A stretch of 32,000 nucleotides of DNA from Mucisphaera calidilacus. GTDB lineage: Bacteria; Planctomycetota; Phycisphaerae; Phycisphaerales; Phycisphaeraceae. Numbering within the stretch: position 1 is the stretch's first letter; each line of letters starts with the position of its first letter. The stretch spans positions 1-32,000 of the forward strand of contig NZ_CP036280.1 of the NCBI RefSeq assembly GCF_007748075.1, read 5' to 3'. Shown piece after piece: positions 3,382-30,651 of this stretch. Under the pieces are notes generated by a model. It worked only from the letters and a program-made list of their open reading frames with translations. It ran no database searches and was not told where the DNA came from. Made by a program: the position numbers and the translations under genes.

Positions 3382-3413
3382 TCTCGGAGCCGTTGCGCTG
3401 ATCGGAGGGGATC

Positions 3414-6864: not shown

Positions 6865-6890
6865 GGCGGATTCTGTGGTTTAAACGCATG

Positions 6891-6918: not shown

Positions 6919-6940
6919 CGTTCTCCGATACACTCTGGGC

Positions 6941-8455: not shown

Positions 8456-8457
8456 CG

Positions 8458-11729: not shown

Positions 11730-11765
11730 GTTTACGCCTGCCTGAGTGCGGGCAAGGAAGGTGCC

Positions 11766-16397: not shown

Positions 16398-16491
16398 TGG
16401 TGGGCTTGGCGGGTCAGAGCCCGCTCAACCATCAGGACCTAGAGACGCAGAGGCGGCTGGCGATCGTGCCCCGCCCGATGTCCGAGACGCC

Positions 16492-18282: not shown

Positions 18283-18288
18283 TCGGCC

Positions 18289-18723
18289 ATGGACCGCGAT
18301 CATTCCTGCGGCGTGATTCCCGTCTTCATCGAGCCCGGCGAGCCGAGGCGTTACCTGCTGGTTCAGCACAACGCGGGGCACTGGGGCTTTCCCAAGGGTC
18401 ATCCCGAGCGGGGCGAGTCGTCGCTGGAGACCGCCATCCGCGAGCTGCACGAGGAGACGGGTCTGACCTCGGACCGGATCATCAGCGACCACCCGTTCAG
18501 CGAGCGGTACGTCTTCCGCAAGGGCTCGGGCCGGGTCGTGGACAAGAGCGTGACGTATTTCATCGGTTTCATGGACACGCTCGACGTGGCCTATCAGGAC
18601 GATGAGCTGCAGGATGCGCAGTGGGGCGATCTCGAGGCGACGCTCGGGCGTATGAGTTTCGAGGAGGGGCGCAAGCTGCTGATGGAGGTCCACGCGTTTC
18701 TGGACCGCGATGCGTCGCGCTAG
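18289..18723 (+). CDS. NUDIX hydrolase (Ap4A-hydrolase-like)
   Basis: Nudix box GHWGFPKGHPERGESSLETAIRELHEETGL. Starts 6 nt after the lepA stop. Confidence 0.9.
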   Translation: MDRDHSCGVIPVFIEPGEPRRYLLVQHNAGHWGFPKGHPERGESSLETAIRELHEETGLTSDRIISDHPFSERYVFRKGSGRVVDKSVTYFIGFMDTLDVAYQDDELQDAQWGDLEATLGRMSFEEGRKLLMEVHAFLDRDASR

Positions 18724-18946
18724 CTGATCCGGCCGGGCTCACCCGTTTCGCCAACGTCGCACAGACGGTTAACCCGCACAGGCCGACCTCCGGGGCCGAA
18801 GGGACGACTTCGCGGTCGTCGGATGGTCATGTTGCGCGTTCGAGGGGTCGATCAACCCTGCAGACGGGCACAGACCGTCAGCCCGACCTGATGAGAACAG
18901 GCACACCCAGCCCGAGCGGCTTGTGCCCCAGCCAGGAGTCTGATTC

Positions 18947-19435
18947 ATGGGAGCCAGCCAGATCAAACGACGTGCCTTCACCCTCGTTGAGATTCTCATC
19001 GTGGTCGTGATTCTCGGCATTCTCGCTGCCGTCGTCATTCCTCAGTTCAGTGACGCAGCGGAGACCGCCAAGGCCAGCAGCCTGGTCTCGCAGCTGCAGA
19101 CGGTTCGGTCGCAGCTCGAGCTTTACATGATCCAGCACAACGGCAACTACCCGTCGCTGGGCAGCAACTGGAACCAGCTGACGCAGACGACCAGTGTTTC
19201 GGGCGCGACCTCGGGTTCGGACTTCGGTCCCTACCTGCAGAAGTCGCCGATCAACCCGTTCGAGAACTCGTCGAGTGTCGATGAGGGCAACAATGCTCTG
19301 GGCACGGCGGCGGCGGGCGTGGGCTGGGTCTACAACCCCGACAACGGGCAGATCAAGGCGGTCGTGAATGCCTCGAAGGCGACCACGCTCTCGCTCTCGA
19401 CCGAGGACGTCGCGACCTACAGCTCGACCGAGTAA
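18947..19435 (+). CDS. Prepilin-type N-terminal cleavage/methylation protein (GspG-like pseudopilin / type IV pilin)
   Basis: AGGAG RBS. Class III signal KRRAFTLVEILIVVVILGILAAVVIPQF (cleavage before F, Glu at +5). GspG-like stretch AKASSLVSQLQTVRSQLELYMIQHNGNYP. Ser/Thr-rich C-terminus. Followed by a strong terminator. Confidence 0.9.
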   Translation: MGASQIKRRAFTLVEILIVVVILGILAAVVIPQFSDAAETAKASSLVSQLQTVRSQLELYMIQHNGNYPSLGSNWNQLTQTTSVSGATSGSDFGPYLQKSPINPFENSSSVDEGNNALGTAAAGVGWVYNPDNGQIKAVVNASKATTLSLSTEDVATYSSTE

Positions 19436-19470
19436 ATCGTCGCCACCGATAACTCGACCCTCTCCGTTAT

Positions 19471-19497
19471 GGCCGCCCCACGTGGGCGGCCGTTTTT
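19471..19497 (+). terminator. Rho-independent terminator after the pilin gene
   Basis: 8-bp GC stem GGCCGCCC (19471-19478) / GGGCGGCC (19484-19491), a 5-nt loop, then G + T5 (19492-19497). Confidence 0.8.
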
Positions 19498-19557
19498 CGT
19501 TGGGGCGTGGGGTTACCCCAAAGTCGCGCCTTGCTCCAGCCGATACCAGCGGAGCAG

Positions 19558-19848
19558 ATGGAGCAGCACCCCCAGGAGGCCGAACCCGTGTCAGCCCGAC
19601 GATCAACGCATCCGTCGTGGTACCTCGTCGCAGGCGTCGTGTCGCTCGGGGTCTGGATGGTGTGGTCGGACTCGGACACGCGTTCCTGGCCGGCGGATGC
19701 TCAGGCACTGCCTAACCCCGCGGAGCAGCGTCTCGAGCTGATCCGTGAGGTGCGTGCGCTGCGCGAGGCCGTGGAGCGGATCGAGCGCGATCTCGGCGGG
19801 TCCGAGAAGACAGATCGATCGGAGGGCGAGCATGCTCGGCTTCGGTAA
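19558..19848 (+). CDS. Hypothetical small single-pass membrane / coiled-coil protein
   Basis: 96-aa ORF from ATG 19558 (alternative GTG 19507). High GC3 like its neighbours. TM segment WYLVAGVVSLGVWMVW. C-terminal heptad-like AEQRLELIREVRALREAVERIERDL. Its 3' end overlaps the pilM start by 17 nt. No recognisable family. Confidence 0.4.
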   Translation: MEQHPQEAEPVSARRSTHPSWYLVAGVVSLGVWMVWSDSDTRSWPADAQALPNPAEQRLELIREVRALREAVERIERDLGGSEKTDRSEGEHARLR

Positions 19849-20869
19849 GAACCGTTACAGCCCGCTCGGGGTTGATTTAGCCAAGGATTGTGTCTGTCTG
19901 AGCCAGCTGCGTCGGGCCGGTGGCCGGGTCGTGCTCAGCGGTTTTGCCAGCTGGGCGTCCGAGGGCGAGGCGGGCTACGCCGGCGTCGCTGAGCAGGTCG
20001 TTCAGTCGCTGAAACGGGACCGCTTCTTGGGCAGGCGTGTGGTGGTTCGCGTGCCCGATCATCTTCTGAACATCAAGAACGTGCGTATCCCGACCCTCCC
20101 GGATGACGAGCTCGAAGAGGCCGTCCGCTGGGAGGCGGGCGAGCGGCTGAACATCAACCCCGACGAGAGCATTATCCGGTTCTACGACGCGGGCGAGGTG
20201 CGGCAGGGGAGCGAGACCCGGCGGGAGATCATTATTCTTGCGGCGCCCGCGCAGCCCCTGAACGAGCTGACCGAGGCCCTCGACGCCAACGGGCTTGAGG
20301 TGCTGGCGCTCGAGGCAGCGCCGACCATGCTCGCGCGTTTTCAGGGCTACATCGAGGAGAGTGTTTACGTCTCGGCGGGTGATGCCGAGGCCCCGCACGT
20401 CATCTTGCACATCGGGGCCGAGCACACCTGGGTGCTGATCGCGGACTGTGGGCGGCTGGTTTTCGTGCGGCAGATGCCGGTCGGTTCTCTCGATCTCGGC
20501 CAGCAGCAGCAGGCTCAGGCCTCGGCCGAGGAGCCGGAGCGGGCGACGTACGACCTCGACGACCCGGAGCCCAGGACGCAGGCCCGGCCGCGTGTTGACG
20601 TGGGTCAGGAGCTGGCGTTGTGTCTTCGGTACCACGGCGTGACGTTCCCCGGGCGTCGCCCCGAGACCGCGTGGCTCTTTGCGCCGGATGAGGTGCTTGC
20701 CGGCGTGGCCGACTCGATCAGCAGCCGCACGCACCTGGCGGTGATCAGTCCGGCGACGATCACGGAGGCGTTGCCCGACCTCAGCGGCGACACCGACGAG
20801 CCGCTGTCGCAGATCGCCCCCTCGCTGGCGCTGGCCATGAACTGGCCGGGCGGGAGGTTGGCGGCATGA
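19832..20869 (+). CDS. pilM: PilM-like actin-fold pilus assembly ATPase-like protein
   Basis: ATG 19832 follows GGAGGG (19821-19826). N-terminus LGVDLAKDCVCLSQL resembles the PilM GxDxG phosphate-1 region. About 345 aa. Directly upstream of PilN/PilO-like genes with a 4-nt overlap. Confidence 0.8.
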   Translation: MLGFGKNRYSPLGVDLAKDCVCLSQLRRAGGRVVLSGFASWASEGEAGYAGVAEQVVQSLKRDRFLGRRVVVRVPDHLLNIKNVRIPTLPDDELEEAVRWEAGERLNINPDESIIRFYDAGEVRQGSETRREIIILAAPAQPLNELTEALDANGLEVLALEAAPTMLARFQGYIEESVYVSAGDAEAPHVILHIGAEHTWVLIADCGRLVFVRQMPVGSLDLGQQQQAQASAEEPERATYDLDDPEPRTQARPRVDVGQELALCLRYHGVTFPGRRPETAWLFAPDEVLAGVADSISSRTHLAVISPATITEALPDLSGDTDEPLSQIAPSLALAMNWPGGRLAA

Positions 20870-21459
20870 GTGATCTGAACTTCCTCCCGTTGTCTTATCG
20901 CAGGGCTCGGCTGCGTCAGCGTGTGCGTCGGATCGAGATCGGCACGGTCATCCTGCTGGCGGCGTTGTTTGCTGCGGGTTGGGGTCAGCTCTGGACGCTG
21001 CGCACCCAGCTCGCCGAGCGTGTCGCCGGGGCCGAGGTGCTCGCCGATCAGGCGTTTCGGCTGCGCGACGAGCTGCTGGGGCTGGAGTCCGAGCGGCTTG
21101 AGCTGCACGAGCAGTCGCGGCTCTACCGGACGCTCGAACCCCGGTTGCGATTCAGCGACGCGCTGCGCATCCTTGCGGGCACCCTCCCGCCGGAGAGCGG
21201 CCTGGCCGATCTGGACGTCCGGCACCGCGACGACGCCTCGCCGCGTCTCGACCTGGGGCTGCGTGTGATCTGCGCCGACGACCGCCAGGTCGCCAGCGCC
21301 GTCGCCTCGCTCGCCCAGCACCCGATCTTCACAGGCATCGAGGTCCAGGCCGTGGTTCCGGTCGAGGAAGCGACGGGCCCGATGCGTGAGGTGAGTCTCG
21401 AAGCGACGATCGACCTGAACCGCCGGTTCACGCTGGTGACGGAAGGAGCCGCGCCGTGA
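20866..21459 (+). CDS. pilN: PilN-like bitopic pilus alignment protein
   Basis: Characteristic N-terminus MSDLNFLP, a basic stretch and a TM segment (IGTVILLAALFAAGW), then a coiled coil. ATGA overlap with pilM. Confidence 0.8.
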   Translation: MSDLNFLPLSYRRARLRQRVRRIEIGTVILLAALFAAGWGQLWTLRTQLAERVAGAEVLADQAFRLRDELLGLESERLELHEQSRLYRTLEPRLRFSDALRILAGTLPPESGLADLDVRHRDDASPRLDLGLRVICADDRQVASAVASLAQHPIFTGIEVQAVVPVEEATGPMREVSLEATIDLNRRFTLVTEGAAP

Positions 21460-22019
21460 GGGTTACGCTCCGCGATACCTGGCGTCTGATGGTCGCCGTC
21501 CCTGCGATGGCGCTGCTGTTTGTCGTGGGTGCCTGGCTGCCGCACAGTGCGAGCACCGGTGATCTTCAGCAGCGGCTTGATGACGCCAACCAGGCACACT
21601 CGTCACTCGATGCGCTGGAGGCTCAGGTCGCCCGCGCCCGCCGTGACATCGACGACCTCGCCGAGGCCTACCGCGACCGCAGCACCGGTCTGGTGCCGGA
21701 CATCGACCCCATGCCCGAGGTGATCGGGCGTATCGCTCGTCTCACCGAGGCGGCGGGTGTTGTCGATCACGAGCTGATGACGCTCGGCCAGGAGGAGGGC
21801 GAGGGCTACCGTGCCCAGCGATTCCGCCTGACGTTCTCGACCGGGTTCGAGGCCGCCTACGAGATCCTCGACGCGATCGAGCACCTGCACTACCTCGTCA
21901 ACGTTCGGTCGATGAACCTCACGCGTGACAGCGAGCAGGAGCGTCTGAGCGTGGCCCTTGAGCTGCTGGCCTACGCCCGCGTCTCCGGCGACGCCTCGGC
22001 CGCAGGAGATACGCCATGA
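21456..22019 (+). CDS. pilO: PilO-like bitopic pilus alignment protein
   Basis: GTG start overlaps the pilN stop (GTGA). TM segment (LMVAVPAMALLFVVGAW), coiled coil, and a ferredoxin-like C-terminus (FEAAYEILDAIEHLHYLVNVRSMNLTR). Confidence 0.7.
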   Translation: MRVTLRDTWRLMVAVPAMALLFVVGAWLPHSASTGDLQQRLDDANQAHSSLDALEAQVARARRDIDDLAEAYRDRSTGLVPDIDPMPEVIGRIARLTEAAGVVDHELMTLGQEEGEGYRAQRFRLTFSTGFEAAYEILDAIEHLHYLVNVRSMNLTRDSEQERLSVALELLAYARVSGDASAAGDTP

Positions 22020-22558
22020 ACAGCTGGTGGGACCAACTCGTCAGCAGTTACAAGGCCCAGCCGACCAAGGTGATCGCGCTGGCCGGCATGAGTGTCTTCG
22101 GGCTGCTGCTGTGGGGGCGACTGCTGCTGACCGACCCGCCACGCGTCGCGACGGCGGACCCCGAGCCGACGGTGAATCAGGCCGAGACTCGGTCTGCGGA
22201 AGACGCACGCCCGTCGGCCGAGTCGACCATCAAGCCCGAGTTGGTGGTCCCGGTGTCCCATAACGCGCCGCGCAACCTCTTCCAGGCCCGAGATGTGGCA
22301 TCAACCGGACCATCCGCATCGACCGGAGAAGAGTCACAGACGGATTCGGACGATAGCCCGAGCAGGACCATGATCCGCGAGCGCGCCCAGCAGCTGAGTC
22401 TGCAGGCCGTCGTGCTCGGCAGCGAGCCGCGTGCCGTGATCAACGGCACGACCGTGCGGCCCGGCCAGGCCATCGACGGATTCAAGCTGCTACGCGTCGG
22501 CAGGCGACACGCGGACCTCGAGATGCATGGCACGACCGTGCGGATCGGCCTGCCCTGA
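22016..22558 (+). CDS. PilP/GspC-like secretin-interacting inner-membrane protein
   Basis: ATGA overlap with pilO. N-terminal TM segment (VIALAGMSVFGLLLWGRLLL), a disordered linker, and a C-terminal beta-domain LSLQAVVLGSEPRAVINGTTVRPGQAIDGFKLLRV. Its position immediately before the secretin fits this role. Confidence 0.5.
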   Translation: MNSWWDQLVSSYKAQPTKVIALAGMSVFGLLLWGRLLLTDPPRVATADPEPTVNQAETRSAEDARPSAESTIKPELVVPVSHNAPRNLFQARDVASTGPSASTGEESQTDSDDSPSRTMIRERAQQLSLQAVVLGSEPRAVINGTTVRPGQAIDGFKLLRVGRRHADLEMHGTTVRIGLP

Positions 22559-22571
22559 GACGGGAGAAGTG

Positions 22572-24584
22572 ATGATCAACGAGCCATCCCAACCCTATCG
22601 CACGCTCCACCGCCTCGGCGGTGTCTGCCTGGCACTCGCCCTTGCTGCCGGCGCATCGGCGCAGGTGGACGCGCCCGGCGATGACGGGATCATCGACCTC
22701 ACCTCCGACAACGCCGCTGCTGACCTCGTGCCCGCGCTGAGCGTCACCGCGCTTGGTGAGATCGACCTGAACGTCCGCGACACCGAGATCGACACCGTGC
22801 TCAACCTCCTGAGCGAGCAGGCCCGCCACAACATCGTGGTCAGCCCGAACGTCCGCGGGACCATCTCGGCGAGTCTCTACGGCGTCACCTTCGACGAGGC
22901 GCTCGACAGCCTGCTTACGCCCAACGGCTTCCGCTACGTGCGCTCGGACAACTTCATCCACGTCTACACCGCCGAGGAGATGCGCGAGATCGAGGCGACG
23001 ACCAACAAGCCCGTCACGCGGATCATCCGGCTCGATTTCATCAGCTCGACCGACGCCCAGACCTTCGCCGAGCCGCTGCTCTCGGAGAACGGCCGTCTCG
23101 CCATCAGCAGCGAGGTGCCCGAGGGTTTTGAGGCGACCATCTCCGATGGCGGCGCGAACACGTACTCCCACGCCGACACGCTGATCGTCCACGACCGCCC
23201 CGAGCACGTCGAGAAGATCGTCGAGCTGCTCGAGGAGCTGGACCGCATGCCCGAGCAGGTCATGATCGAGGTCACGATCCTCCAGGCCAAGCTCAGCGAG
23301 AACAACGCGTTTGGCGTGGACTTCGCGATCCTCAGCGACATCTCGATCTCCGACGCCACCTCCCCGCTGGCCGCCGTCGACGAGTTGATCAGCGGCGACC
23401 TGGCCGCCGACTCGGCCGCGGCCATCACGAGCATCGCGGGCAACACGACCAACGGCGAATCGTCGGTCAAGCTCGGCGTGATCGGGGGCGACGCGGCGGT
23501 CTTCGTCCGTGCGCTCGAGAGCATCACCGACACGACGGTGATCTCGACGCCGAAGGTCGCAGTGCTCAACCGCCAGCGTGCGGTGGTGGATGCGACCGAG
23601 CAGCTGCCCTACATCTCGACGACCGAGAGCGAGATCTCCAGCACCGAGACGATCGAGACGATCGACGTCGGCACGCAGCTCATGGTCCGGCCGTTCATCA
23701 GTTCCGACGGGTACATCCGTCTTGAACTCAACCCCGTGCTCTCCGAAGGCAGCACCGAGCTGAGCCCGCTGGGCGTGATCCTGCCCAACACCTCGCGGCA
23801 GGCGCTTCAGACCAACGTCATGGTCCGCTCCGGGCAGACGGTGGTGCTGGGCGGTCTGTTCAAGGAGGACACCACCAACACGACCAACCAGGTGCCCTAC
23901 TTCGGGCGGATCCCCATATTGGGCAACGCCTTCAAGGGACGCGACGACAGCTCCGAGCGTGTCGAGATCATCTTCCTGATCAAGCCGACGATCGTCCGCG
24001 ACCGCGTGCTCGCGCACGCCGGCGAGGAGGCCCGCCAGGGCATCGAACGCATCCGGCTGGGCTCACGCAGCGGGCTGCTTCCCTTCTCGCGGCTGCGGAT
24101 GCTGCGCTCACACCTGGCCCGCGCCGAGCGATACGCCCGCGAGGGCGACAGTGAGCGCGCTCTCTGGCACACCAACATCGCCTTGTCGCTCGAACCGATC
24201 TCGGCCGAAGCGCTCAACCTCAAGGGCAGCCTGATCGGTCGGCGGCTGCAGGAACGCGAACGCGGCCTGCTCGACGGTCCTGTTCGGCGTGCGCTGCAGT
24301 CGGCGATCGAGACGTTCAATCAGCCGGAGCCGACGCCCGAGCCGGCCGCCACGCCGCCCGCGTCGTCGGAACCCGAAGACCGGGCTTTGCCGCGCGGCAG
24401 CGACCGGATGGTGAGCGGGCAGGCACGCGCCAACCGCAGCCTCTGGCTGACGCCTCAGGAGGATCGGCCCGGTCCGGTTCAGCAGGGTGAGGCGCCGGAC
24501 CAGGACAACTGGGTGAGCGCGATGATCGACGAGATCCTTGGCAGGGCGGACCGCCAGCAGGCCGCCGTGGAGGTCAAGCCTTGA
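22572..24584 (+). CDS. pilQ: Secretin (PilQ/GspD family) with long C-terminal extension
   Basis: ATG 22572 follows GGGAGAAG. Signal peptide LGGVCLALALAAGASAQV. Secretin core TIDVGTQLMVRPFISSDGYIRLELNP...QTNVMVRSGQTVVLGGLFKED...VPYFGRIPILGNAFKG...IIFLIKPTIV. About 195 further residues follow the core. Confidence 0.9.
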   Translation: MINEPSQPYRTLHRLGGVCLALALAAGASAQVDAPGDDGIIDLTSDNAAADLVPALSVTALGEIDLNVRDTEIDTVLNLLSEQARHNIVVSPNVRGTISASLYGVTFDEALDSLLTPNGFRYVRSDNFIHVYTAEEMREIEATTNKPVTRIIRLDFISSTDAQTFAEPLLSENGRLAISSEVPEGFEATISDGGANTYSHADTLIVHDRPEHVEKIVELLEELDRMPEQVMIEVTILQAKLSENNAFGVDFAILSDISISDATSPLAAVDELISGDLAADSAAAITSIAGNTTNGESSVKLGVIGGDAAVFVRALESITDTTVISTPKVAVLNRQRAVVDATEQLPYISTTESEISSTETIETIDVGTQLMVRPFISSDGYIRLELNPVLSEGSTELSPLGVILPNTSRQALQTNVMVRSGQTVVLGGLFKEDTTNTTNQVPYFGRIPILGNAFKGRDDSSERVEIIFLIKPTIVRDRVLAHAGEEARQGIERIRLGSRSGLLPFSRLRMLRSHLARAERYAREGDSERALWHTNIALSLEPISAEALNLKGSLIGRRLQERERGLLDGPVRRALQSAIETFNQPEPTPEPAATPPASSEPEDRALPRGSDRMVSGQARANRSLWLTPQEDRPGPVQQGEAPDQDNWVSAMIDEILGRADRQQAAVEVKP

Positions 24585-24589
24585 AGACG

Positions 24590-25795
24590 ATGGCACGACA
24601 GTTTGGCGTTCTCTTCGCCGTCGCGCTCGCGGCGGTCTTCGCGATCGGCTGCGAATCGACGCGTGACGTCGATCAGCACAAGGTCGAGGCGGACGCCCGC
24701 TGGTGGGACCTGCGTGGCAACATGATCCTCGAGCAGGCCCAGTACCAGTTCGACAACAGCGAGCTGGATCAGGCCGAGGCCACGCTCCACGAAGCGATGC
24801 GCATCAGCCCGGAGAACCCGAGGCTGCTGATCCTCGCCGGGCGCATCGCGCTCGAACGCGGGGAGCTGGAGCGTGCCGCGATCGCGCTGCGGTCCGCGGC
24901 CGAGGCCGACCCGCAGGACGCGGTGGCTCACTACTACCTGGGCATCGTCGAGCAGCGTTGGCAGCGTACTCAGGCCGCTCGCGATCACTACGCCCGAGCC
25001 GCCGAGCTGGACCCCGACAACCTCGAGTACCTGCTGGCTCATGCCGAGTCGGAGGTTGCGCTGGGCAACGACGCTCAGGCGGTCGCGCTGATGGAGCAGC
25101 GGCTGGGCTATTTCGCTCACCACGCGGCGCTGCACCACGCGCTGGGCAGGGCGATGGTTCTTGTGGATCGTCGGGTCGAGGCGCTCGATCACCTGCACGA
25201 GGCCGCGATCCTCGACCCCGACAACCTCACCTACCGCACCGACCTCGCGTTCGAACTCGTCGACAGCGGCCAGCCCGAGGAGGCCGGACGCATCCTCGCC
25301 GAGCTCCTGAAGGACCCGCGCTACGCCGAGCGGCACGACCTGCGACGCGCCTACGCCCGCGCCTGCGAGGAGGCCAGCCGGTGGGCCGAGGCCCGGCGGC
25401 TCTACCGCGACCTTTGCCAGAAGCAGGACCCGCTCGCTCAGGACCTGCTGGGTCTGGCGCGCATGAGCTGGCAGCTCGGCGACGCCACCGGTGCCGAACG
25501 CGCCGCGGCCCGCGTGATCGAGCGTCACCCCAACAACAGCGCCGCCATGATCTGGCTCGGGCTGGCGGCCCTCGAACGCGACGACGCGCTCCAGGCCAGC
25601 CGCTGGTTCGAGATGGTCACCGCCCTCACGCCCGAGGACGCCCAGGGGTGGGCGCTCTACGGAACCTCGCTCCAGCGGCTCGGCAGGCTGCCGGAGGCCG
25701 TCGAGGCTTATCGCAAAGCCCACGAAATCGACCCCGGCAACCCGCAGATCCGCGCTCTGCTGAGCCAGGTCCGGAGGCCGGCGAACCCCGCGTGA
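24590..25795 (+). CDS. TPR-repeat lipoprotein (PilF/PilW/Tgl-like candidate pilotin)
   Basis: ATG 24590 (the ORF-track TTG at 24581 overlaps the secretin stop). Lipobox MARQFGVLFAVALAAVFAIGC. At least 8 TPR-like units (e.g. AHYYLGIVEQRWQRTQAARDHYARAAELDPDN; GWALYGTSLQRLGRLPEAVEAYRKAHEIDPGN). Confidence 0.85.
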   Translation: MARQFGVLFAVALAAVFAIGCESTRDVDQHKVEADARWWDLRGNMILEQAQYQFDNSELDQAEATLHEAMRISPENPRLLILAGRIALERGELERAAIALRSAAEADPQDAVAHYYLGIVEQRWQRTQAARDHYARAAELDPDNLEYLLAHAESEVALGNDAQAVALMEQRLGYFAHHAALHHALGRAMVLVDRRVEALDHLHEAAILDPDNLTYRTDLAFELVDSGQPEEAGRILAELLKDPRYAERHDLRRAYARACEEASRWAEARRLYRDLCQKQDPLAQDLLGLARMSWQLGDATGAERAAARVIERHPNNSAAMIWLGLAALERDDALQASRWFEMVTALTPEDAQGWALYGTSLQRLGRLPEAVEAYRKAHEIDPGNPQIRALLSQVRRPANPA

Positions 25796-25822
25796 GAGAC
25801 GCGCACCCCGACAGGGCCGACC

Positions 25823-27325
25823 ATGAGTACCCCCGCCCCCAACGATCGGCAGCCGTACGTCGCGACGACGCGTGAGCGCCTGCGCCGGCTCGGCATCCCC
25901 GTGGTCGATCTCGCGATCGACGGGCACACGGTCACCCACGCCATCGACTGCCCCGTGTCCAGCACCACGCTCGATCACCTGCTCGCCGCGTCGGTCATCC
26001 GCGAACTCACCGAGACCCCGCTGCGCTTCTGCCCCATCACTGACACGCTCTACGCCATCAACATCAGCCCCGAGCAGCCGACCGACACGCTCGCGGTCGC
26101 GTTGATCAGCCACGGCGACCATGCCAGCACGCGCTCGGAGGCTCATCGGATCGAGCAGCTGCTCCGCTGGTGGAGCGAGGACACCCAGCAGCTCGAGGTG
26201 GCCCGGCACACGGCGCAGCAGAACGGCCACGAGCTGGCCCTCGCCTACGAGGAGCTCAGTCTCATCGACCACCTCACCCAGCACAGCGAGCTGCGCGAGT
26301 CCACCGAGAACCGGCTGGACGAGGCGGTGCAGGACCTGCGCGAGGTCGCGCGGCTGCGTTTCCTCGCCCTGCACCTCGCCGACGACCGGCCGCGCCTCAA
26401 CGTGCTCCGCGGCAAGACCTTCTTTCCCGAGGACTCGGTCACGAGCATCCGCTCCATCCGCGCCGCCGGCGACTGGCTGCTCGCCCGGTTGGGCAACACG
26501 CCCGGCGTGACGCGATTCGCGCCCGAGCTGCACGAGGGGCTCTCGGCGCTGGGCACCGAGATCCTCGCGATGAAGATCCGCCACCGCGATCAGGTCCTCG
26601 GCGTGCTGTACGGCGCCGACCGCTTTGACGGCCAGCCCTTCGACGCCACAGACATGGCACGCTTCGAGTCGCTGGGCACGAGCATCTCCGTGTTCCTCAA
26701 CAACGCGCTGCTCTTCACCGAGATGCACGGCCTGTTCGTCGGGACCCTCAGCGCCCTGTCCACCGCGATCGACGCCAAGGACGCCTACACCCACGGGCAC
26801 TCGCAGCGTGTCGCCTCGCTCACACGCCAGCTCGCCAGGGCCGCCGGGTTCGGCGTCGTCGACACCGAACGCCTCTACCGCTCGGCGCTCGTGCACGACC
26901 TGGGCAAGATCGGCGTGCCCGAGGCCATCCTGACCAAGGAGGGCAAGCTGACTCGCGAGGAGTTCGATGCCATCAAGCGACACCCGCAGATCGGCGCACG
27001 GATCCTCCGCGACATCGAGTCGATGACCGAGCTGATCCCCGGCGTGCTCTCGCACCACGAGCGTTGGTCCGGCGGCGGCTACCCCCAGGGCATCGCCGGC
27101 CGCGCGATCCCCTTCGAGGGACGCGTCATCGCGCTGGCCGACAGCTACGACGCCATGCGCTCCAAACGCAGCTACCGCGACGCCATGCCCCACGAGCAGG
27201 CCATGGAGGAGGTCCGGCGAGGCCGCGGCACGCAGTTCGAGCCGGAGTTGGCCGACGCCTTCCTGACCCTCGACTTCGACGCCTATAACGACCCGCAGCA
27301 GGACAGCACGCGGCGGGCCGCCTGA
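25823..27325 (+). CDS. HD-GYP domain protein (candidate c-di-GMP phosphodiesterase) with N-terminal GAF-like sensor region
   Basis: HD-GYP core HGHSQRVASL...LVHDLGKIGVPEAIL...HHERWSGGGYPQGIAG...ALADSYDAM. GAF-like stretch MKIRHRDQVLGVLYGADRFDGQPFD. Confidence 0.9.
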   Translation: MSTPAPNDRQPYVATTRERLRRLGIPVVDLAIDGHTVTHAIDCPVSSTTLDHLLAASVIRELTETPLRFCPITDTLYAINISPEQPTDTLAVALISHGDHASTRSEAHRIEQLLRWWSEDTQQLEVARHTAQQNGHELALAYEELSLIDHLTQHSELRESTENRLDEAVQDLREVARLRFLALHLADDRPRLNVLRGKTFFPEDSVTSIRSIRAAGDWLLARLGNTPGVTRFAPELHEGLSALGTEILAMKIRHRDQVLGVLYGADRFDGQPFDATDMARFESLGTSISVFLNNALLFTEMHGLFVGTLSALSTAIDAKDAYTHGHSQRVASLTRQLARAAGFGVVDTERLYRSALVHDLGKIGVPEAILTKEGKLTREEFDAIKRHPQIGARILRDIESMTELIPGVLSHHERWSGGGYPQGIAGRAIPFEGRVIALADSYDAMRSKRSYRDAMPHEQAMEEVRRGRGTQFEPELADAFLTLDFDAYNDPQQDSTRRAA

Positions 27326-27333
27326 GAGACGCC

Positions 27334-27678
27334 ATGAAAATCAACCTCGAACAACGCGACGACATCGGGCTGATCACCATTACCGGCGAGGTCAGCGAGT
27401 CCGACTCCGACCTGATCCGCTCCTGCGTGCTCGAACACATCGAGGCCGGCGGGCACGACGTCGTCCTGGACATGGTCGCCGTCGAAGGCCTCGACTCCCG
27501 CGCCCTCGAGTCGCTGCTGGTGATCAACGAGATGATCGCCGAGCGTCTGGGTCGGCTGGTGCTGGGCGATATCTCGGAGACCGTCGAACGCATCCTCCAC
27601 GCCACACGCCTGAACCGGACCCTCGAGCACCACCCGACGGTCGACGCCGCCATCAAGGCGATCCGGGAGGCAGCATGA
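27334..27678 (+). CDS. STAS-domain protein (anti-sigma-factor-antagonist fold)
   Basis: 114 aa: IGLITITGEVSESDSDLIRSCVLEHIEAGGHDVVLDMVAVEGLDSRALESLLVINE...LVLGDISETVERILHATRLNRTL. Starts 8 nt after the HD-GYP stop; its stop overlaps the ATPase start (ATGA at 27675-27678). Confidence 0.85.
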   Translation: MKINLEQRDDIGLITITGEVSESDSDLIRSCVLEHIEAGGHDVVLDMVAVEGLDSRALESLLVINEMIAERLGRLVLGDISETVERILHATRLNRTLEHHPTVDAAIKAIREAA

Positions 27679-29408
27679 ACACCAGCGACACCAGCCAACG
27701 CAGCGCGCGCCCCCTGCGCATCGGCGACGTCCTGCTCGCGCAGGGTCTCATCGCGCAGGAGCAGATCGACGCGGCCCTCGAGCACCAGCGCAACGAGGGG
27801 GGCGGCAAGCTCCTCGGCCAGGTGCTCATCGAGCTGGGCATGGTCACTGAGCAGCAGACGCTCGAAGCCGTCGCCGAGGCACTCGACCTGCCCTTCGCAC
27901 GCCTTGATAACGCGATGGTCGACCCGCACCTCAACGAGCTGCTGCCCCAGAGCTTCCTCGACGAGCACGTCGCCGTCCCGATGTTCCTCGTCAAGGACCT
28001 GCTGACCCTCGCCGTGAGCGAGCCGACCGACATGTTCCTGCTCGAGGAGGTCGAACGCCTCACCGGCAAGACCGCGCAGCTCGTGGTCGCCACCGAGCAG
28101 GACATCCGCGACGCTCAGCGGTATCTCCAGGCCGGCGCCGCCTCCTCGTCCCTGGACGACCTTGTCCGGGACATGGACTACACCGACCCCGAGGACGCGG
28201 CCAGCGTCGCCGACATCACGGCCGAGGCGATCGCCGACGGCAGCTCGCCGGTGATCAAGCTGGTCAACCACATCCTCTTCCAGGCGGTCCGCGAGGGCGC
28301 CTCCGACATCCACATCGAGCCGGGCGATCAGTCGCTACGCGTTCGCTTCCGCATCGACGGCCGACTCACCGCGACGATCACTCCGCCCGCGCCGATGCAC
28401 GCTGCGATCACCAGCCGCATCAAGATCATGGCGGGCATGGACATCTCCGAGAAGCGCATCCCTCAGGACGGCGGCATCGCGATCCAGTGCGACGGCCGGC
28501 CGGTCGACCTGCGTGTCTCGACCATGCCCGGGCGCTACGGCGAGAAGGTTGTCATCCGAATCATCGACGCGCGCAATGCGATGGTCGACCTCGAGCTGCT
28601 CGGCCTGAGCCCGCGCATGCTCCGGCGCTACATGGACGTGATCACCCAGCCCAACGGCATCGTGCTCGTCACCGGGCCGACGGGCTCGGGCAAGTCCACG
28701 ACGCTCTACGCCACCCTCCGCCACATCGTCGACGCCACCCGCAACATTTCGACGGTGGAGGACCCCGTCGAGTACGGGCTCGATGGCGTCAACCAGTTCC
28801 AGGTCAACGAGAAGACCGGCTTCACCTTCTCCACCGCACTGCGCGCGCTGCTCCGCCAGGACCCCGACATCATCATGCTCGGCGAGATCCGTGACGCCGA
28901 GACCGCGCGCATCGCCACCCAGGCGGCGCTCACCGGCCACATGGTCTTCTCCACGCTGCACACCAACGATTCGCCTTCCGCCGTCACGCGGCTGATCAAC
29001 ATCGGCGTCGAGCCTTATCTCATCGCCGCGTCGGTCCGTGCCGTGCTCGCCCAGCGACTCGTGCGCAAGCTCTGCACCAGCTGCCGCGAGAAGCAGCCCA
29101 TCGAGTACGAGCACAAGCGCATCCTTGAGCGACTCGGCGTCGAGGTCGACGAGAACACCGAGTTCTACCAGCCCGTCGGCTGCCGCAAGTGCCGCGAGAC
29201 CGGCTACAAGGGACGGCTCGGCATCTACGAGATCTACATCCCCACGGACGAGGCGCTCGACGCCATCAGCCGCGGGGCCGCGCTCCAGGAGCTCCGCACG
29301 CTCGCGCGCGGCAGCGACGGCTACATCACCCTCAGCGAGGACGGACTGGCCAAGGTGCAGGCCGGCGAGACCACGCTGAGCGAACTGCTCACCGCGACCG
29401 CAGCCTGA
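27675..29408 (+). CDS. pilB: PilB/MshE/GspE-family secretion ATPase with N-terminal MshEN (T2SSE_N) domain
   Basis: Walker A GPTGSGKSTT. Asp box and Walker B IIMLGEIRD. His box ALTGHMVFSTLHTN. Tetracysteine CTSC...CRKC. N-terminus LRIGDVLLAQGLIAQEQIDAALEHQ. Confidence 0.95.
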   Translation: MNTSDTSQRSARPLRIGDVLLAQGLIAQEQIDAALEHQRNEGGGKLLGQVLIELGMVTEQQTLEAVAEALDLPFARLDNAMVDPHLNELLPQSFLDEHVAVPMFLVKDLLTLAVSEPTDMFLLEEVERLTGKTAQLVVATEQDIRDAQRYLQAGAASSSLDDLVRDMDYTDPEDAASVADITAEAIADGSSPVIKLVNHILFQAVREGASDIHIEPGDQSLRVRFRIDGRLTATITPPAPMHAAITSRIKIMAGMDISEKRIPQDGGIAIQCDGRPVDLRVSTMPGRYGEKVVIRIIDARNAMVDLELLGLSPRMLRRYMDVITQPNGIVLVTGPTGSGKSTTLYATLRHIVDATRNISTVEDPVEYGLDGVNQFQVNEKTGFTFSTALRALLRQDPDIIMLGEIRDAETARIATQAALTGHMVFSTLHTNDSPSAVTRLINIGVEPYLIAASVRAVLAQRLVRKLCTSCREKQPIEYEHKRILERLGVEVDENTEFYQPVGCRKCRETGYKGRLGIYEIYIPTDEALDAISRGAALQELRTLARGSDGYITLSEDGLAKVQAGETTLSELLTATAA

Positions 29409-29427
29409 ACCCGCAGGACCCGACGCT

Positions 29428-30651
29428 ATGCCCGATTTCACCTTCAAAGCCAGGACCAGCGCGGGGCAGATCGACACCGGCATCCTCGACGCCGACTCGC
29501 TCGCCCAGGCCGCCGCTCGCCTGCGCCAGCGCGGGCTCTTCCCTGTCTCCATCAACCCCGCGCGCGACGGGCAGCGCAGGCAGAACACCAAGCCCACCAG
29601 GCCGCAGGGGAGCGTCAAACGCGCGGATGTGATCGCCTTCGCCAACGAGCTCGCCATCCTGCTCGACGCCGGCGTCATCATGCGTGACGCCCTCGCCTGC
29701 GCGACCGGCCAGGCGCGGAACGATGCCATGGGCGCCGTCCTCAAGGACATCCAGGACCACGTGCAGTCGGGCGGGACGCTCTCGGACGCCCTCGCCCAGC
29801 GGCCCGACGTCTTCCCCACGCTCATGGTCAGCATGATCAGCGCGTCCGAGGCCTCGGGCACCCTGTCCGACATGCTCATGCGTGTCGCCGACTACATGGA
29901 ACAGGAACAGAAGATCCAGCGCACCGTGCGCTCGGCGATGACCTACCCGCTGGTGATGTTCGTCGCGACGTTCACGATCACGGCCTTCCTCATCGGCTTC
30001 GTCCTGCCCCGTTTCGCCTCGATCTACGCCAGCCGCGGGGCCGACCTGCCCCTGCCCACACAACTGCTGATCGGCATCAGCACCACCTTCACGAGCTACT
30101 GGCCCCACATGCTCGCCGGCGCGATCGCCCTCGGGATCGGGGCCTACTTCTACTTCCGCTCGACCCACGGCCGGCACCTCATCGACACCGCCAAACTCGG
30201 CCTGCCGCTCTTCGGGCCGCTCTTCAACAAGCTCTACCTCACACGCTCGTTCCGCACGATGAGCGTCATGCTCGACGCCGGCGTGCCGCTGCTCGATCTC
30301 ATCGGGATCACGCGCAACATCACGACCAACCACCACATCGCACGCCTCTGGGACGACGTCGCTGATCAGGTCAAGCAGGGCGGCAACATCTCGACCGTGC
30401 TGCGCGATTCGCCGTATATCTCGGGTTCGATTGCGCAGATGATCGCATCGGGCGAGCAGGCGGGGCGTGTCGGCGACATCATGGCACGCGTCGCGCAGCG
30501 CACCGAGGAAGAGTTCGAGCGAGGGGTCAAGGCGATGACGCAGTTCGTGGAGCCCGCCATGATCGCGGCGCTCGGCCTTGTCGTCGGCTTCGTCGCCATC
30601 GCGCTGCTGCTGCCGATCTTCTCGGTTGGCAAGGTCGTCTCCGGCGGGTGA
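29428..30651 (+). CDS. pilC: PilC/GspF-family inner-membrane platform protein
   Basis: 407 aa with two T2SSF repeats (ELAILLDAGVIMRDAL...SMISASEASGTL and FRTMSVMLDAGVPLLDLI...QMIASGEQAGRV) and three TM blocks. Confidence 0.95.
   Translation: MPDFTFKARTSAGQIDTGILDADSLAQAAARLRQRGLFPVSINPARDGQRRQNTKPTRPQGSVKRADVIAFANELAILLDAGVIMRDALACATGQARNDAMGAVLKDIQDHVQSGGTLSDALAQRPDVFPTLMVSMISASEASGTLSDMLMRVADYMEQEQKIQRTVRSAMTYPLVMFVATFTITAFLIGFVLPRFASIYASRGADLPLPTQLLIGISTTFTSYWPHMLAGAIALGIGAYFYFRSTHGRHLIDTAKLGLPLFGPLFNKLYLTRSFRTMSVMLDAGVPLLDLIGITRNITTNHHIARLWDDVADQVKQGGNISTVLRDSPYISGSIAQMIASGEQAGRVGDIMARVAQRTEEEFERGVKAMTQFVEPAMIAALGLVVGFVAIALLLPIFSVGKVVSGG

What the first reader, a model, noticed from the sequence alone, without database searches (positions are those of the whole stretch)
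18947..30651. One co-directional 11.7-kb pilus/T2SS-like supercluster mixing T2SS-type and T4aP-type parts
All core parts lie in a single + strand block. In order: a GspG-like pilin closed by a strong terminator, a small TM ORF, PilM-N-O-P-like genes joined by 4-nt overlaps, a secretin, a TPR lipoprotein, an HD-GYP protein, a STAS protein, a PilB/MshE-like ATPase and a PilC/GspF platform. The major subunit resembles a T2SS pseudopilin, while the alignment subcomplex (PilMNOP) is T4aP-like. The window contains no prepilin peptidase, no PilT-type retraction ATPase and no minor-pilin set. Classical T4aP loci usually split pilMNOPQ from pilBCD, so this consolidated layout with signalling genes inside it is atypical. 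Such clusters are functionally uncharacterised in PVC-type bacteria.
Basis: partly seen in the sequence, partly recalled or inferred. Interest (0 to 1): 0.7.

Follow-up and report, generated by a model that had tools for sequence, protein, structure and literature searches.

The report
Conserved Phycisphaerae pilus-type machine with signalling genes
This is a real 12-gene operon for a pilus/secretion-type filament machine in the planctomycete Mucisphaera calidilacus; the same layout, with cyclic-di-GMP and STAS signalling genes placed directly before the motor ATPase, recurs across the class Phycisphaerae and fits none of the described machine families cleanly.

Summary
Window 18947-30651 carries 12 co-directional genes: GspG-like prepilin plus terminator, small membrane ORF, PilM, PilN, PilO, a TM+HR-domain protein, secretin, TPR lipoprotein, GAF-HD-GYP, STAS, assembly ATPase and platform. 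The window is from Mucisphaera calidilacus Pan265 (Phycisphaerae).

What changes is the reading. The cluster is a reduced copy of a class-wide operon. Secretin<TPR<HD-GYP<ATPase<platform is colinear in 55/57 related loci, and a STAS gene abuts the ATPase in 74/75. Most relatives also carry a PAS histidine kinase and a receiver gene before the HD-GYP. At least two carry a full minor-pilin set (I/J/K/H-like) before PilM.

The backbone order equals the MSHA "secretory" operon, so consolidation is not unusual. However, the ATPase and platform form their own clades outside T2SS, T4aP and MSH references. Every core protein scores below NCBIfam equivalog cut-offs. The "PilP" is a GspC/GspB-type HR-domain protein.

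Best reading: a distinct type IV filament lineage whose extension motor is gated by a dedicated HD-GYP/STAS module. Pilus versus secretion output is unresolved. This is a new variant of a known kind, of moderate interest.

The parts
18947..19435 (+). Major prepilin, GspG-like (162 aa). The leader is MGASQIKRRA|FTLVEIL. There are no cysteines.
   Evidence: N_methyl 29.6 bits and T2SSG 23 bits pass the Pfam cut-offs. TIGR01710 GspG scores 61 bits, below the 88.85 cut-off. PulG 5wda aligns over residues 11-107. Orthologues have G or A at position -1 and a conserved GPYLQKxPxNPF motif.
19469..19503 (+). Intrinsic terminator-like hairpin plus T-run, directly after the pilin gene.
   Evidence: The stem has 10 pairs, 8 of them G-C, with a loop of 5, followed by TTTTTCGTTGG.
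19558..19848 (+). Small membrane protein (96 aa from ATG 19558; the ORF is open from GTG 19507). It has one TM helix and then a conserved PNPAEQRLELIRE segment. It overlaps the PilM start by 17 nt.
   Evidence: No family hit. It is conserved only in the Mucisphaera lineage: 58% identity in L001 and 46% in L092. The GC3 of 0.75 for the ORF read from GTG 19507 is coding-like, and GGAG lies upstream of ATG 19558.
19832..20869 (+). PilM (actin-like cytoplasmic ring protein).
   Evidence: PilM_2 scores 27.7 bits against a cut-off of 27. TIGR01175 scores 61.5 bits, below 133. The only PDB sequence hits are PilM proteins: Thermus 7.9e-10 and M. xanthus 1.4e-8.
20866..21459 (+). PilN-like bitopic protein with an N-terminal LNFLPLSYRR motif, equivalent to the INLLP PilM-binding motif.
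   Evidence: No single-sequence hit. The orthologue profile A1 hits M. xanthus PilN at 5.6e-6 and Thermus PilN at 7.6e-5. The motif is seen in the alignment. Precomputed PF05137 PilN hits exist on the L090 and L093 orthologues.
21456..22019 (+). PilO-like bitopic protein.
   Evidence: Pfam PilO scores 21.8 bits against a cut-off of 22. Profile A3 hits M. xanthus PilO at 5.6e-20 and P. aeruginosa PilO at 6.7e-12.
22016..22558 (+). Bitopic TM + disordered linker + C-terminal HR (homology-region) domain protein.
   Evidence: In the AF2 model, residues 120-178 have pLDDT of about 90. Foldseek top hits are the GspC HR domain 3oss_C (prob 1.0, TM 0.70, 2.4 A), GspB 4wfw (prob 1.0) and the PulC HR domain 6hcg_e. 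There is a weak T2SSB hit. It has no lipobox cysteine.
22527..24584 (+). Secretin (likely start ATG 22572, giving a signal peptide ending ASA|Q). The architecture is N0 + one N-domain + secretin domain + an unassigned C-terminal extension of about 185 aa.
   Evidence: Secretin 141 bits, STN and GspD_N0 (both above their cut-offs), plus a sub-threshold Secretin_N match at 25.2 bits against a cut-off of 28.2. GspD 217.8, PilQ 207.6 and MshL 148.8 bits are all below their cut-offs. The best PDB hit is Neisseria PilQ at 130 bits. The extension has no Pfam hit.
24581..25795 (+). TPR lipoprotein (lipobox FAIG|C), a candidate secretin assembly factor of the PilW/PilF/Tgl/MshN type.
   Evidence: There are multiple TPR families. 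TIGR02521 PilW scores 68 bits, below 154, and Tgl scores 34 bits. It occupies the same position as the TPR gene mshN in the MSHA loci.
25823..27325 (+). Unassigned N-terminal domain (1-160) + GAF + HD-GYP phosphodiesterase.
   Evidence: HD_5 120.9 bits, HD 74.5 bits and GAF_3 31 bits. The HD, HHE, GYP and D..DA motifs are intact; the window reads HHERWSGGGYP.
27334..27678 (+). Single-domain STAS protein (SpoIIAA/RsbV-like). Its stop codon overlaps the ATPase start (ATGA).
   Evidence: STAS scores 60.8 bits. The DS motif serine (S55) is conserved in 60 of 61 orthologues. A STAS gene lies directly upstream of the ATPase in 74 of 75 loci.
27675..29408 (+). Assembly (extension-type) ATPase with an MshEN-like N-terminal domain, Walker A GPTGSGKS and a CxxC...CxxC tetracysteine motif.
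   Evidence: T2SSE 449 bits and MshEN 64 bits. NF053729 c-di-GMP motif scores 54.2 bits, above the cut-off of 38. PilB 590.8 and GspE 571.2 bits are both below their cut-offs. It sits in its own clade in the NJ tree.
29428..30651 (+). Inner-membrane platform protein (GspF/PilC family).
   Evidence: T2SSF x2 scores 194.6 bits. GspF 354.5 bits is below 424, and PilC models at about 270 bits are below 700. It sits in its own clade.

Best explanation
The block is the Mucisphaera calidilacus copy of a Phycisphaerae-wide operon for a separate lineage of type IV filament (TFF) machine.

Proposed mechanism:
1. The GspG-like prepilin is made from its own attenuated transcription unit. It is cleaved by a prepilin peptidase encoded elsewhere.
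2. It is polymerised on the GspF/PilC-type platform by the hexameric extension ATPase.
3. PilM docks on the PilN N-terminus, and PilN/PilO form the inner-membrane alignment complex.
4. The bitopic HR-domain protein links that complex to the N0 domain of the secretin.
5. The TPR lipoprotein helps the secretin assemble in the outer membrane.

Inferred control: three genes fused to the motor gene gate its activity. These are a GAF-HD-GYP phosphodiesterase that lowers local cyclic-di-GMP, a phosphorylatable STAS partner-switch protein, and the MshEN-like N-terminal domain of the ATPase, which acts as the c-di-GMP sensor. In most relatives, a PAS histidine kinase and a receiver protein feed this module. 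M. calidilacus has lost these two genes and also the operon-linked minor pilins.

Output: I favour a surface fibre over a secretion pseudopilus, at about 60:40.

Shown: gene content, homology, conservation and the separate clades. Inferred: protein contacts, c-di-GMP binding, the role of STAS, and pilus versus secretion.
For: Identity and homology of each part.

Source organism: M. calidilacus, from 100% identical proteins on a 3,486,541-bp contig. That size matches the genome reported in PMC8882080.

Conservation:
- The order is colinear in 55 of 57 loci.
- STAS abuts the ATPase in 74 of 75 loci.
- The histidine kinase is present in 60 of 65 loci and the receiver in 62 of 65.
- HD-GYP catalytic motifs are intact in 72 of 72.
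- The STAS serine is conserved in 60 of 61.
- HD-GYP, STAS and ATPase genes overlap or lie no more than 40 nt apart in the window and in L030, L090, L092 and L093.

Separate lineage:
- The ATPase clade has 100% bootstrap support. It is distinct from T4aP, T2SS and MSH, each also at 100%, with 47-53% identity to all three.
- The platform clade has 98-100% support and lies outside all three.
- All equivalog cut-offs are missed.

c-di-GMP sensing:
- NF053729 scores above its cut-off.
- Motif I, RIGDVLLAQGLIAQEQIDAALEHQ, fits the consensus of PMC5013675.
- Motif II starts LLG, like the 6-nM binder PilF GSPII-B.

Fibre rather than pseudopilus:
- The pilin gene comes first and has its own terminator.
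- PilM/N/O are split proteins.
- The pilotin candidate is a TPR lipoprotein.
- The secretin is PilQ-like, with N0 plus one N-domain.
- The organism is reported to have a 'polar matrix or fibre'.
Against: - The pilin (Pfam T2SSG) and the HR protein (GspC/GspB fold) are the T2SS-like parts. The platform scores best against GspF.
- No retraction ATPase or prepilin peptidase is linked in the loci whose gene content I examined in detail.
- Motif II of the ATPase fails even the relaxed regular expression of PMC5013675 in 0 of 81 orthologues. It has Q24->A family-wide and L17->T in the window. The spacer is 7 residues rather than 5.
- No kinase or phosphatase for the STAS serine is in the window.
- The trees are neighbour-joining with few references. 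The sister relation to T4aP has only 33% support.
- The operon-linked minor pilins are absent here, and a search with the K-like protein found no M. calidilacus homologue. This copy could therefore be partly disabled.
- There are no expression or functional data.
Confidence: 0.6

Rival explanations
1. It is a type II secretion system. The GspG-like subunit forms a short periplasmic pseudopilus that pushes folded exoproteins (for example polysaccharide-degrading enzymes or the neighbouring phosphoesterase) through the secretin. c-di-GMP signalling tunes secretion.
For: - The pilin passes Pfam T2SSG, and its best model is GspG.
- The globular part of the pilin aligns to PulG.
- The fourth alignment protein has a GspC/GspB-type HR domain and a bitopic topology.
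- The platform scores best against GspF.
- In relatives, the minor pilins are I/J/K/H-like.
- No PilT is linked.
- T2SS loci are usually encoded in a single locus (PMC4793230).
- A signal-peptide-bearing Metallophos protein follows the operon.
- c-di-GMP-binding T2SS ATPases are known (PMC4624772, listed).
Against: - There is no GspL or GspM. Split PilM, PilN and PilO are found instead.
- The HR protein has no PDZ domain.
- The secretin has one N-domain rather than N1-N3, and it scores higher against PilQ in the PDB.
- The pilotin candidate is a TPR lipoprotein rather than a GspS-type protein.
- The ATPase and platform lie outside the canonical T2SS clade.
- The pilin gene has its own terminator, unlike gspG embedded in gsp operons.
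- The downstream gene is not conserved; in L092 it is gyrB.
Confidence: 0.3
2. It is an ordinary but divergent T4aP or MSHA-type pilus operon. The HD-GYP and STAS genes are passengers with no direct action on the machine.
For: - The backbone order is identical to the MSHA secretory operon (PMC4624765).
- The MSHA locus in Aeromonas also begins with a GGDEF-EAL gene.
- The top PDB hits for the ATPase are PilB proteins of Geobacter and Myxococcus.
- PilT-independent loci are normal for MSHA, where pilT lies elsewhere (PMC4624765).
Against: - The ATPase does not group with MshE or with T4aP PilB.
- MshL scores 148.8 bits, below 250, and there is no Secretin_N_2 domain.
- MshM is absent.
- The pilins are upstream rather than downstream.
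- Passenger genes would not keep the same position and the tight or overlapping junctions with the ATPase in 74 of 75 loci across orders of Phycisphaerae.
Confidence: 0.1
3. The M. calidilacus copy is a decaying remnant. Having lost the minor pilins, the kinase and the receiver, it no longer builds a filament.
For: - The minor-pilin set present in L090 and L093 is absent here and in L092.
- The HK and REC genes are absent.
- No homologue of the K-like minor pilin from M. calidilacus was retrieved.
- Motif II of the ATPase is more degenerate in the window than in the family consensus.
Against: - All 12 ORFs are intact, with coding-like GC3 of 0.75-0.94 and preserved catalytic motifs.
- The same reduced form is kept in three related genomes (window, L001, L092) at 44-84% protein identity, which indicates purifying selection.
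- Minor pilins may be encoded elsewhere. The genome could not be scanned.
Confidence: 0.1

Closest known systems
MSHA (mannose-sensitive haemagglutinin) pilus locus of Vibrio/Aeromonas (mshI-F secretory operon, MshE ATPase)
   Same: - The backbone order is the same: PilM/N-like, PilO-like, small protein, secretin, TPR protein, MshEN-domain ATPase, platform (PMC4624765).
- No retraction ATPase lies in the locus.
- A c-di-GMP-related gene (mshH, GGDEF-EAL) sits in the Aeromonas locus.
- The ATPase has an N-terminal c-di-GMP-type domain.
   Different: - There is no MshM AAA ATPase.
- The secretin lacks Secretin_N_2 and scores below the MshL cut-off.
- The pilins are upstream rather than in a downstream operon.
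- HK, REC, HD-GYP and STAS are inserted between the TPR and ATPase genes.
- The ATPase and platform are not in the MshE/MshG clade.
Type IVa pilus machine (PilMNOPQ, PilB, PilC, TPR lipoprotein PilF/PilW/Tgl) as in Myxococcus, Thermus and Pseudomonas
   Same: - PilM, PilN (with an INLLP-like motif) and PilO are separate proteins.
- The secretin has N0 plus one N-domain.
- There is a TPR lipoprotein.
- The extension ATPase has a tetracysteine motif and an MshEN-like N-terminus.
- Relevant calls: 22, 25, 27, 29, 65, 99.
   Different: - The PilP lipoprotein is replaced by a bitopic HR-domain protein.
- There are no AMIN domains.
- The pilin is GspG-like and lacks a disulphide.
- No PilT or PilD is linked.
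- All TIGR/NF equivalog cut-offs are missed.
- The ATPase clade is separate, with sister support of only 33%.
Type II secretion system (Gsp/Xcp)
   Same: - The major subunit is GspG-like.
- The GspC/GspB-type HR domain would contact the secretin N0 domain.
- The platform scores best against GspF.
- The system is encoded in one locus.
- Relatives carry I/J/K/H-like minor subunits.
- Relevant calls: 4, 6, 63, 70.
   Different: - There is no GspL or GspM, no PDZ domain on the HR protein, no N1-N3 array on the secretin and no GspS pilotin.
- The gene order differs from gspC-M.
- The ATPase and platform lie outside the GspE/GspF clade.
c-di-GMP control of T4P motors (MshE, M. xanthus PilB, Thermus PilF GSPII domains; the FimX-PilZ-PilB complex described for Xanthomonas)
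   Same: The motor has an MshEN-like N-terminal domain. A c-di-GMP-metabolising protein is functionally tied to a pilus motor.
   Different: - Here the phosphodiesterase is an HD-GYP encoded inside the machine operon, next to the motor.
- It is accompanied by a STAS protein. A 2024 review of PilB cofactors mentions neither STAS nor HD-GYP.
- Motif II deviates from the consensus.
Akkermansia Amuc_1098-1102 type IV pilus-like cluster (another member of the PVC superphylum, which groups Planctomycetes, Verrucomicrobia and Chlamydiae)
   Same: Both are PVC-group clusters with a secretin, a PilM-like protein and a pilin-like protein. There are weak NCBIfam hits to the Amuc_1101 and Amuc_1098 families.
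   Different: The scores are far below the cut-offs: 35 against 650, and 59 against 750. This cluster is not an orthologue.

Membership tests
Type II secretion system (T2SS) | GspE ATPase and GspF platform of the T2SS clade | tested here: not met
   TIGR02533 scores 571 bits, below 630. TIGR02120 scores 354 bits, below 424. NJ trees place both outside the XcpR/GspE and XcpS/GspF clades, each supported at 100%.
Type II secretion system (T2SS) | GspG major pseudopilin | tested here: inconclusive
   Pfam T2SSG scores 23 bits, above its cut-off of 21. TIGR01710 scores 61 bits, below 88.85. The single-sequence AF2 model is unusable at pLDDT 45.
Type II secretion system (T2SS) | GspC (HR + PDZ/coiled coil), GspL and GspM assembly platform | tested here: not met
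   An HR-domain fold is present, but there is no PDZ domain. PilM, PilN and PilO are present instead of GspL and GspM. tblastn with GspC, GspL and GspM finds nothing.
Type II secretion system (T2SS) | Minor pseudopilins GspH-I-J-K in the locus | tested here: not met
   They are absent from the window. I/J/K/H-like genes are present in relatives L090 and L093.
Type IVa pilus (T4aP) | PilM, PilN and PilO alignment proteins | tested here: met
   PilM_2 scores at its cut-off, and only PilM proteins are hit in the PDB. The orthologue profiles hit PilN and PilO.
Type IVa pilus (T4aP) | PilP lipoprotein and PilQ secretin (equivalog level) | tested here: not met
   The fourth protein has a TM helix and no lipobox, and its best fold matches are GspC and GspB. 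TIGR02515 scores 207.6 bits, below 284.
Type IVa pilus (T4aP) | PilB and PilC of the T4aP clade | tested here: not met
   TIGR02538 scores 590.8 bits, below 675.65. The PilC models score about 270 bits, below 700. Both proteins form a separate clade, and the sister relation to T4aP has only 33% bootstrap support.
Type IVa pilus (T4aP) | PilT retraction ATPase and PilD prepilin peptidase in the genome | not testable with these tools
   They are absent from the window.
MSHA pilus (MSH) | Gene order mshI-J-K-L-M-N-E-G | tested here: inconclusive
   The backbone order matches the A. caviae and L. adelaidensis loci. However, MshM is missing and four signalling genes are inserted.
MSHA pilus (MSH) | MshL secretin and MshE ATPase clade membership | tested here: not met
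   TIGR02519 scores 148.8 bits, below 250.2, and there is no Secretin_N_2 domain. The two MshE references form their own clade at 100%, and it excludes the window protein.
MshEN c-di-GMP-binding domain | Two tandem 24-residue motifs RLGxxhhxxGhhxxxxLxxxLxxQ | tested here: inconclusive
   NF053729 scores 54.2 bits, above 38. Motif I is a perfect fit. Motif II is LLGQVLIELGMVTEQQTLEAVAEA, with R1->L (as in the high-affinity PilF GSPII-B), L17->T and Q24->A. None of the 81 orthologues matches the relaxed pattern for a second motif. Binding itself was not tested.
HD-GYP phosphodiesterase | HD, HHE, GYP and downstream Asp motifs | tested here: met
   HD_5 scores 120.9 bits. The motifs are present in the window and in 71-72 of 72 orthologues. 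Activity was not tested.
STAS / SpoIIAA-type anti-sigma antagonist | STAS fold with a phosphorylatable Ser, plus a cognate kinase and phosphatase | tested here: inconclusive
   STAS scores 60.8 bits. The DS serine is conserved in 60 of 61 orthologues. No RsbW-type kinase or PP2C phosphatase is found in the cluster.

The most novel reading that the evidence does not exclude
The Phycisphaerae operon defines a further family of type IV filament machines, on a par with MSH or T2SS. Its extension ATPase is gated by a previously undescribed cofactor pair encoded inside the operon: a phospho-switchable STAS protein and a GAF-HD-GYP enzyme acting as a local c-di-GMP sink. In most species this pair is driven by a dedicated PAS kinase and receiver.
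Probability: 0.3. Interest if true: 0.7.

Novelty: new variant of a known kind. Interest (0 to 1): 0.5.

Why it matters
Phycisphaerae are abundant polymer degraders, yet their envelope machines are essentially unstudied. The class-level genome survey and the species description that I searched say nothing about this cluster.

A single, strongly conserved operon holds every structural part of a filament machine together with its sensor kinase, receiver, c-di-GMP phosphodiesterase and a STAS protein. This gives a compact and testable system for two questions. How is a type IV filament motor switched on and off? Where does the line between pilus and secretion system lie?

If the STAS protein acts on the ATPase, it would add a new class of motor cofactor to those known, such as PilZ, FimX and direct c-di-GMP binding.

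The mosaic of T2SS-like and T4P-like parts also illustrates that the current classes, defined mainly on Proteobacteria, do not partition the diversity in the PVC (Planctomycetes-Verrucomicrobia-Chlamydiae) superphylum.

Tried and rejected
- Exact-sequence look-up of the ATPase found no record. The organism was identified later through the HR protein and the STAS protein.
- Profile search of the 'PilP' alignment against PDB sequences gave no hit. The fold comparison was needed instead.
- The single-sequence AF2 model of the pilin had pLDDT 45.5 and was discarded.
- There is no riboswitch or other Rfam family near the pilin leader. The consensus scan found no sigma-70-type promoter.
- I searched for a M. 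calidilacus homologue of the K-like minor pilin and found none. This is not proof of absence, because the search is word-indexed.
- I tested whether the upstream signalling genes of the window (HTH-REC, HDOD kinase, REC-GAF, FHA-GAF-HATPase) are conserved neighbours of the operon. Only one locus (L093) has an HTH-REC orthologue, so I rejected the link.
- The small ORF 19558-19848 shows no similarity to the 107-aa protein at a comparable position in L090.
- The Denise et al. 2019 text and supplements contain no classification of a Phycisphaera system.
- I considered filing the cluster as MSHA because of the gene order. I rejected that after the MshL, MshM and MshE tests failed.

Full report
**1. 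What is in the sequence**

The window has 65% G+C. Positions 18947-30651 carry twelve + strand ORFs with coding-like third-position G+C of 0.75-0.94 and mostly GGAG-type ribosome-binding sites. Profile searches confirm the following:
- A prepilin: N_methyl plus T2SSG. Its best NCBIfam model is GspG at 61 bits, below the 88.85 cut-off.
- PilM: PilM_2 at 27.7 bits against a cut-off of 27.
- A secretin: 141 bits, with an N0/STN domain and one weak (sub-threshold) Secretin_N domain.
- A TPR protein with an AIGC lipobox.
- A GAF-HD-GYP protein: HD_5 at 121 bits.
- A STAS protein: 60.8 bits.
- A T2SSE ATPase: 449 bits, with an MshEN domain.
- A T2SSF platform: 194.6 bits.

A hairpin with a 10-bp stem (8 G-C pairs) followed by a T-run lies 34 nt after the pilin stop codon. 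Four-nucleotide overlaps join PilM/N, N/O, O/HR-protein, secretin/TPR and STAS/ATPase.

Nothing else in the 32 kb resembles a prepilin peptidase, PilT, a minor pilin, GspC/L/M or MshM.

**2. The weak calls**

'PilN' and 'PilP' gave no usable single-sequence hits. I collected positional orthologues from 80 related loci and built profiles.
- The PilN profile hits M. xanthus and Thermus PilN (5.6e-6 and 7.6e-5). The family has an N-terminal xNFLPxxY motif that corresponds to the PilM-binding INLLP motif.
- The PilO profile hits M. xanthus PilO at 5.6e-20.
- PilM hits only PilM proteins in the PDB.
- The 'PilP' profile hits nothing.

An AlphaFold model was built on homologues from the protein database. 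It shows an N-terminal TM helix, a disordered linker and a confident (pLDDT about 90) six-stranded C-terminal domain. The best structural matches for that domain are the GspC HR domain bound to GspD (3oss_C: prob 1.0, TM 0.70, 2.4 A), GspB (4wfw) and the PulC HR domain. The fourth alignment protein is thus a bitopic HR-domain protein of the T2SS type, not a PilP lipoprotein. The HR fold is the shared secretin-N0-binding module.

**3. Origin and conservation**

The HR protein and the STAS protein are 100% identical to proteins of Mucisphaera calidilacus, on a contig of 3,486,541 bp. That is the genome size reported for strain Pan265, a spherical, motile Phycisphaeraceae isolate described as having a 'polar matrix or fibre' and no crateriform structures (PMC8882080).

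The 80 best genomic relatives of the ATPase are all labelled Phycisphaerae or Planctomycetota, apart from one bin labelled Vicinamibacteraceae (L064). Among them:
- In 55 of 57 loci with a full 10 kb upstream, secretin<TPR<HD-GYP<ATPase<platform is colinear.
- A STAS gene lies directly upstream of the ATPase in 74 of 75 loci.
- Between the TPR and HD-GYP genes, 60 of 65 loci carry a PAS-HisKA-HATPase kinase and 62 of 65 a single-domain receiver.
- The window, L001, L004 and L007 lack both of these genes.

Gene calls around more distant members (L090, L093) show one or two GspG-like pilins followed, directly upstream of PilM, by a run of small genes; in L090 these score as GspI/PilV-like, J-like, 387-aa GspK/PilX_N-like and GspH-like. 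In M. calidilacus and its relative L092 the arrangement is LepA-NUDIX-pilin-small ORF-PilM, without minor pilins. The window therefore holds a reduced version of a class-wide operon.

**4. Which class?**

All core proteins fall below the NCBIfam equivalog cut-offs of every class:
- ATPase: PilB 591 against 676, and GspE 571 against 630.
- Platform: GspF 354 against 424, and PilC about 270 against 700.
- Secretin: GspD 218 against 351, PilQ 208 against 284, and MshL 149 against 250.

I assembled reference loci from annotated records:
- P. aeruginosa Xcp, E. marmotae Gsp and Comamonas Gsp.
- A. baumannii PilBCD and N. gonorrhoeae PilF.
- The MSHA loci of A. caviae and L. adelaidensis.
- PilB/PilF sequences taken from PDB alignments.

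In neighbour-joining trees the Phycisphaerae ATPases form a clade with 100% bootstrap support. It is separate from the T4aP, T2SS and MSH clades, each also at 100%. Identity to all three is 47-53%, and support for a sister relation to T4aP is only 33%. The platforms behave the same way: their clade has 98-100% support, lies outside the other three, and shows 28-32% identity to them. These trees are rough, because they are NJ trees with few references. They are nevertheless enough to reject clean membership in any one class.

**5. Layout**

The backbone order is PilM/N-like, PilO-like, small protein, secretin, TPR protein, ATPase, platform. This is exactly the order of the MSHA mshI-F operon, which I verified on two loci and which is documented for V. 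cholerae (PMC4624765). That pilus also uses a PilT encoded elsewhere. What has no precedent that I could find is the block of signalling genes between the TPR and ATPase genes.

**6. Mechanism**

The structural part follows from established knowledge of TFF machines. The platform and the extension ATPase polymerise the pilin; the ATPase has Walker A, a tetracysteine motif and a His box. PilM, PilN and PilO align the inner-membrane complex. The HR domain contacts the secretin N0 domain. The TPR lipoprotein assists secretin assembly.

The regulatory part is inferred, from the following evidence:
- The HD-GYP catalytic motifs are intact in 72 of 72 orthologues.
- The STAS serine of the DS motif is kept in 60 of 61.
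- The HD-GYP, STAS and ATPase genes overlap or lie no more than 40 nt apart in the loci checked.
- The ATPase N-terminus passes the NCBIfam c-di-GMP-motif model at 54 bits, above the cut-off of 38.
- Motif I matches the consensus of Wang et al. 2016 perfectly.
- Motif II departs from the consensus, with R1->L, Q24->A and, in the window, L17->T. It fails even the relaxed pattern in all 81 orthologues.
- An LLG start is nevertheless exactly what the 6-nM binder PilF GSPII-B has (PMC11731258).

I therefore rate c-di-GMP binding as plausible (about 0.6) but unproven. The proposed logic is as follows. The kinase and receiver, where present, together with the GAF domain, set the HD-GYP activity. The local c-di-GMP level and the phosphorylation state of STAS then decide whether the motor engages.

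**7. Pilus or secretion?**

Features that point to a pilus:
- Split PilM/N/O proteins.
- The TPR lipoprotein.
- The PilQ-like secretin architecture, with Neisseria PilQ as the best PDB hit at 130 bits.
- The pilin's own terminator.
- The reported polar fibres.

Features that point to a T2SS:
- The GspG-like pilin.
- The GspC/GspB-type HR protein.
- The GspF-leaning platform.
- The absence of a linked PilT.

I favour a surface fibre at about 60:40. This cannot be settled in silico.

**8. Novelty**

My literature searches found no description of this operon or of a STAS or HD-GYP cofactor for a TFF motor. A 2024 review of PilB cofactors mentions neither. Denise et al. 2019 left 884 systems 'generic', and neither the text nor the supplements classify a Phycisphaera system.

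I rate this as a new variant of a known kind, with interest 0.5. It is a solid and conserved case that generates testable hypotheses, but it is not categorically new.

Noticed in passing
window 1-1458 and 16000-22000: The window opens with dnaA (Bac_DnaA, DnaA_N and DnaA_C domains). GC skew is strongly positive (+0.15 to +0.27) up to about 16 kb whatever the gene strand. It then flips to negative (-0.06 to -0.22) from about 21 kb, and AT skew flips too. This is a terminus-like polarity switch only about 20 kb from dnaA. The same operon sits entirely on the C-rich strand in L001 (skew -0.3) and on the G-rich strand in L092. The cause is unexplained; it could be an inversion breakpoint or an unusual origin placement.
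   Followed up: partly
window 1486-1568 (- strand): A tRNA gene (Rfam, 57.5 bits) overlaps the 5' end of the mechanically called HNH-endonuclease ORF 1517-2368. The true start of that ORF is probably further downstream.
   Followed up: no
window 2683-10152: A dense run of signalling genes: HTH_17-REC, HDOD-HisKA-HATPase, REC-GAF and FHA-GAF-HATPase, interrupted by argininosuccinate lyase. Only the HTH-REC gene has an orthologue near the operon in another locus (L093), so a link to the pilus operon is not supported.
   Followed up: yes
window 10251-13031: A DUF1800/DUF1501 gene pair.
   Followed up: no
window 30752-32000 (+ strand, runs off the end): A signal-peptide-bearing calcineurin-like metallophosphoesterase (Metallophos, 44.7 bits) lies immediately downstream of the platform gene. 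It could be a secretion substrate, but the downstream neighbour is not conserved; in L092 it is gyrB.
   Followed up: partly
window 24024-24581 (secretin residues ~500-685): The secretin has a C-terminal extension of about 185 aa after the secretin domain. It has no Pfam hit and only a weak TPR-like match (designed CTPR protein 7obi). Orthologue lengths vary from about 600 to about 1,160 aa, so this region is plastic.
   Followed up: partly
window 25823-26302 (HD-GYP protein residues 1-160): [quoted passage not shown] Orthologues also carry about 200 unassigned residues before the GAF domain. It is a candidate docking or sensor domain.
   Followed up: partly
L036 13740-18780 (Fontivita pretiosa): Directly downstream of the operon lie an ECF-type sigma factor, a second, shorter T2SSE ATPase (400 aa, 38% core identity) and two T2SSF proteins. 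This is a second filament system adjacent to the first.
   Followed up: no
L025: This is the only locus of 75 in which the ATPase and platform pair lacks the upstream STAS, HD-GYP, TPR and secretin genes.
   Followed up: no
alignment A3 (PilO orthologues) against the PDB: The PilO profile gives a weak sub-threshold match (E about 0.3) to Akkermansia Amuc_1100. This hints that this much-studied protein is PilO-related.
   Followed up: no
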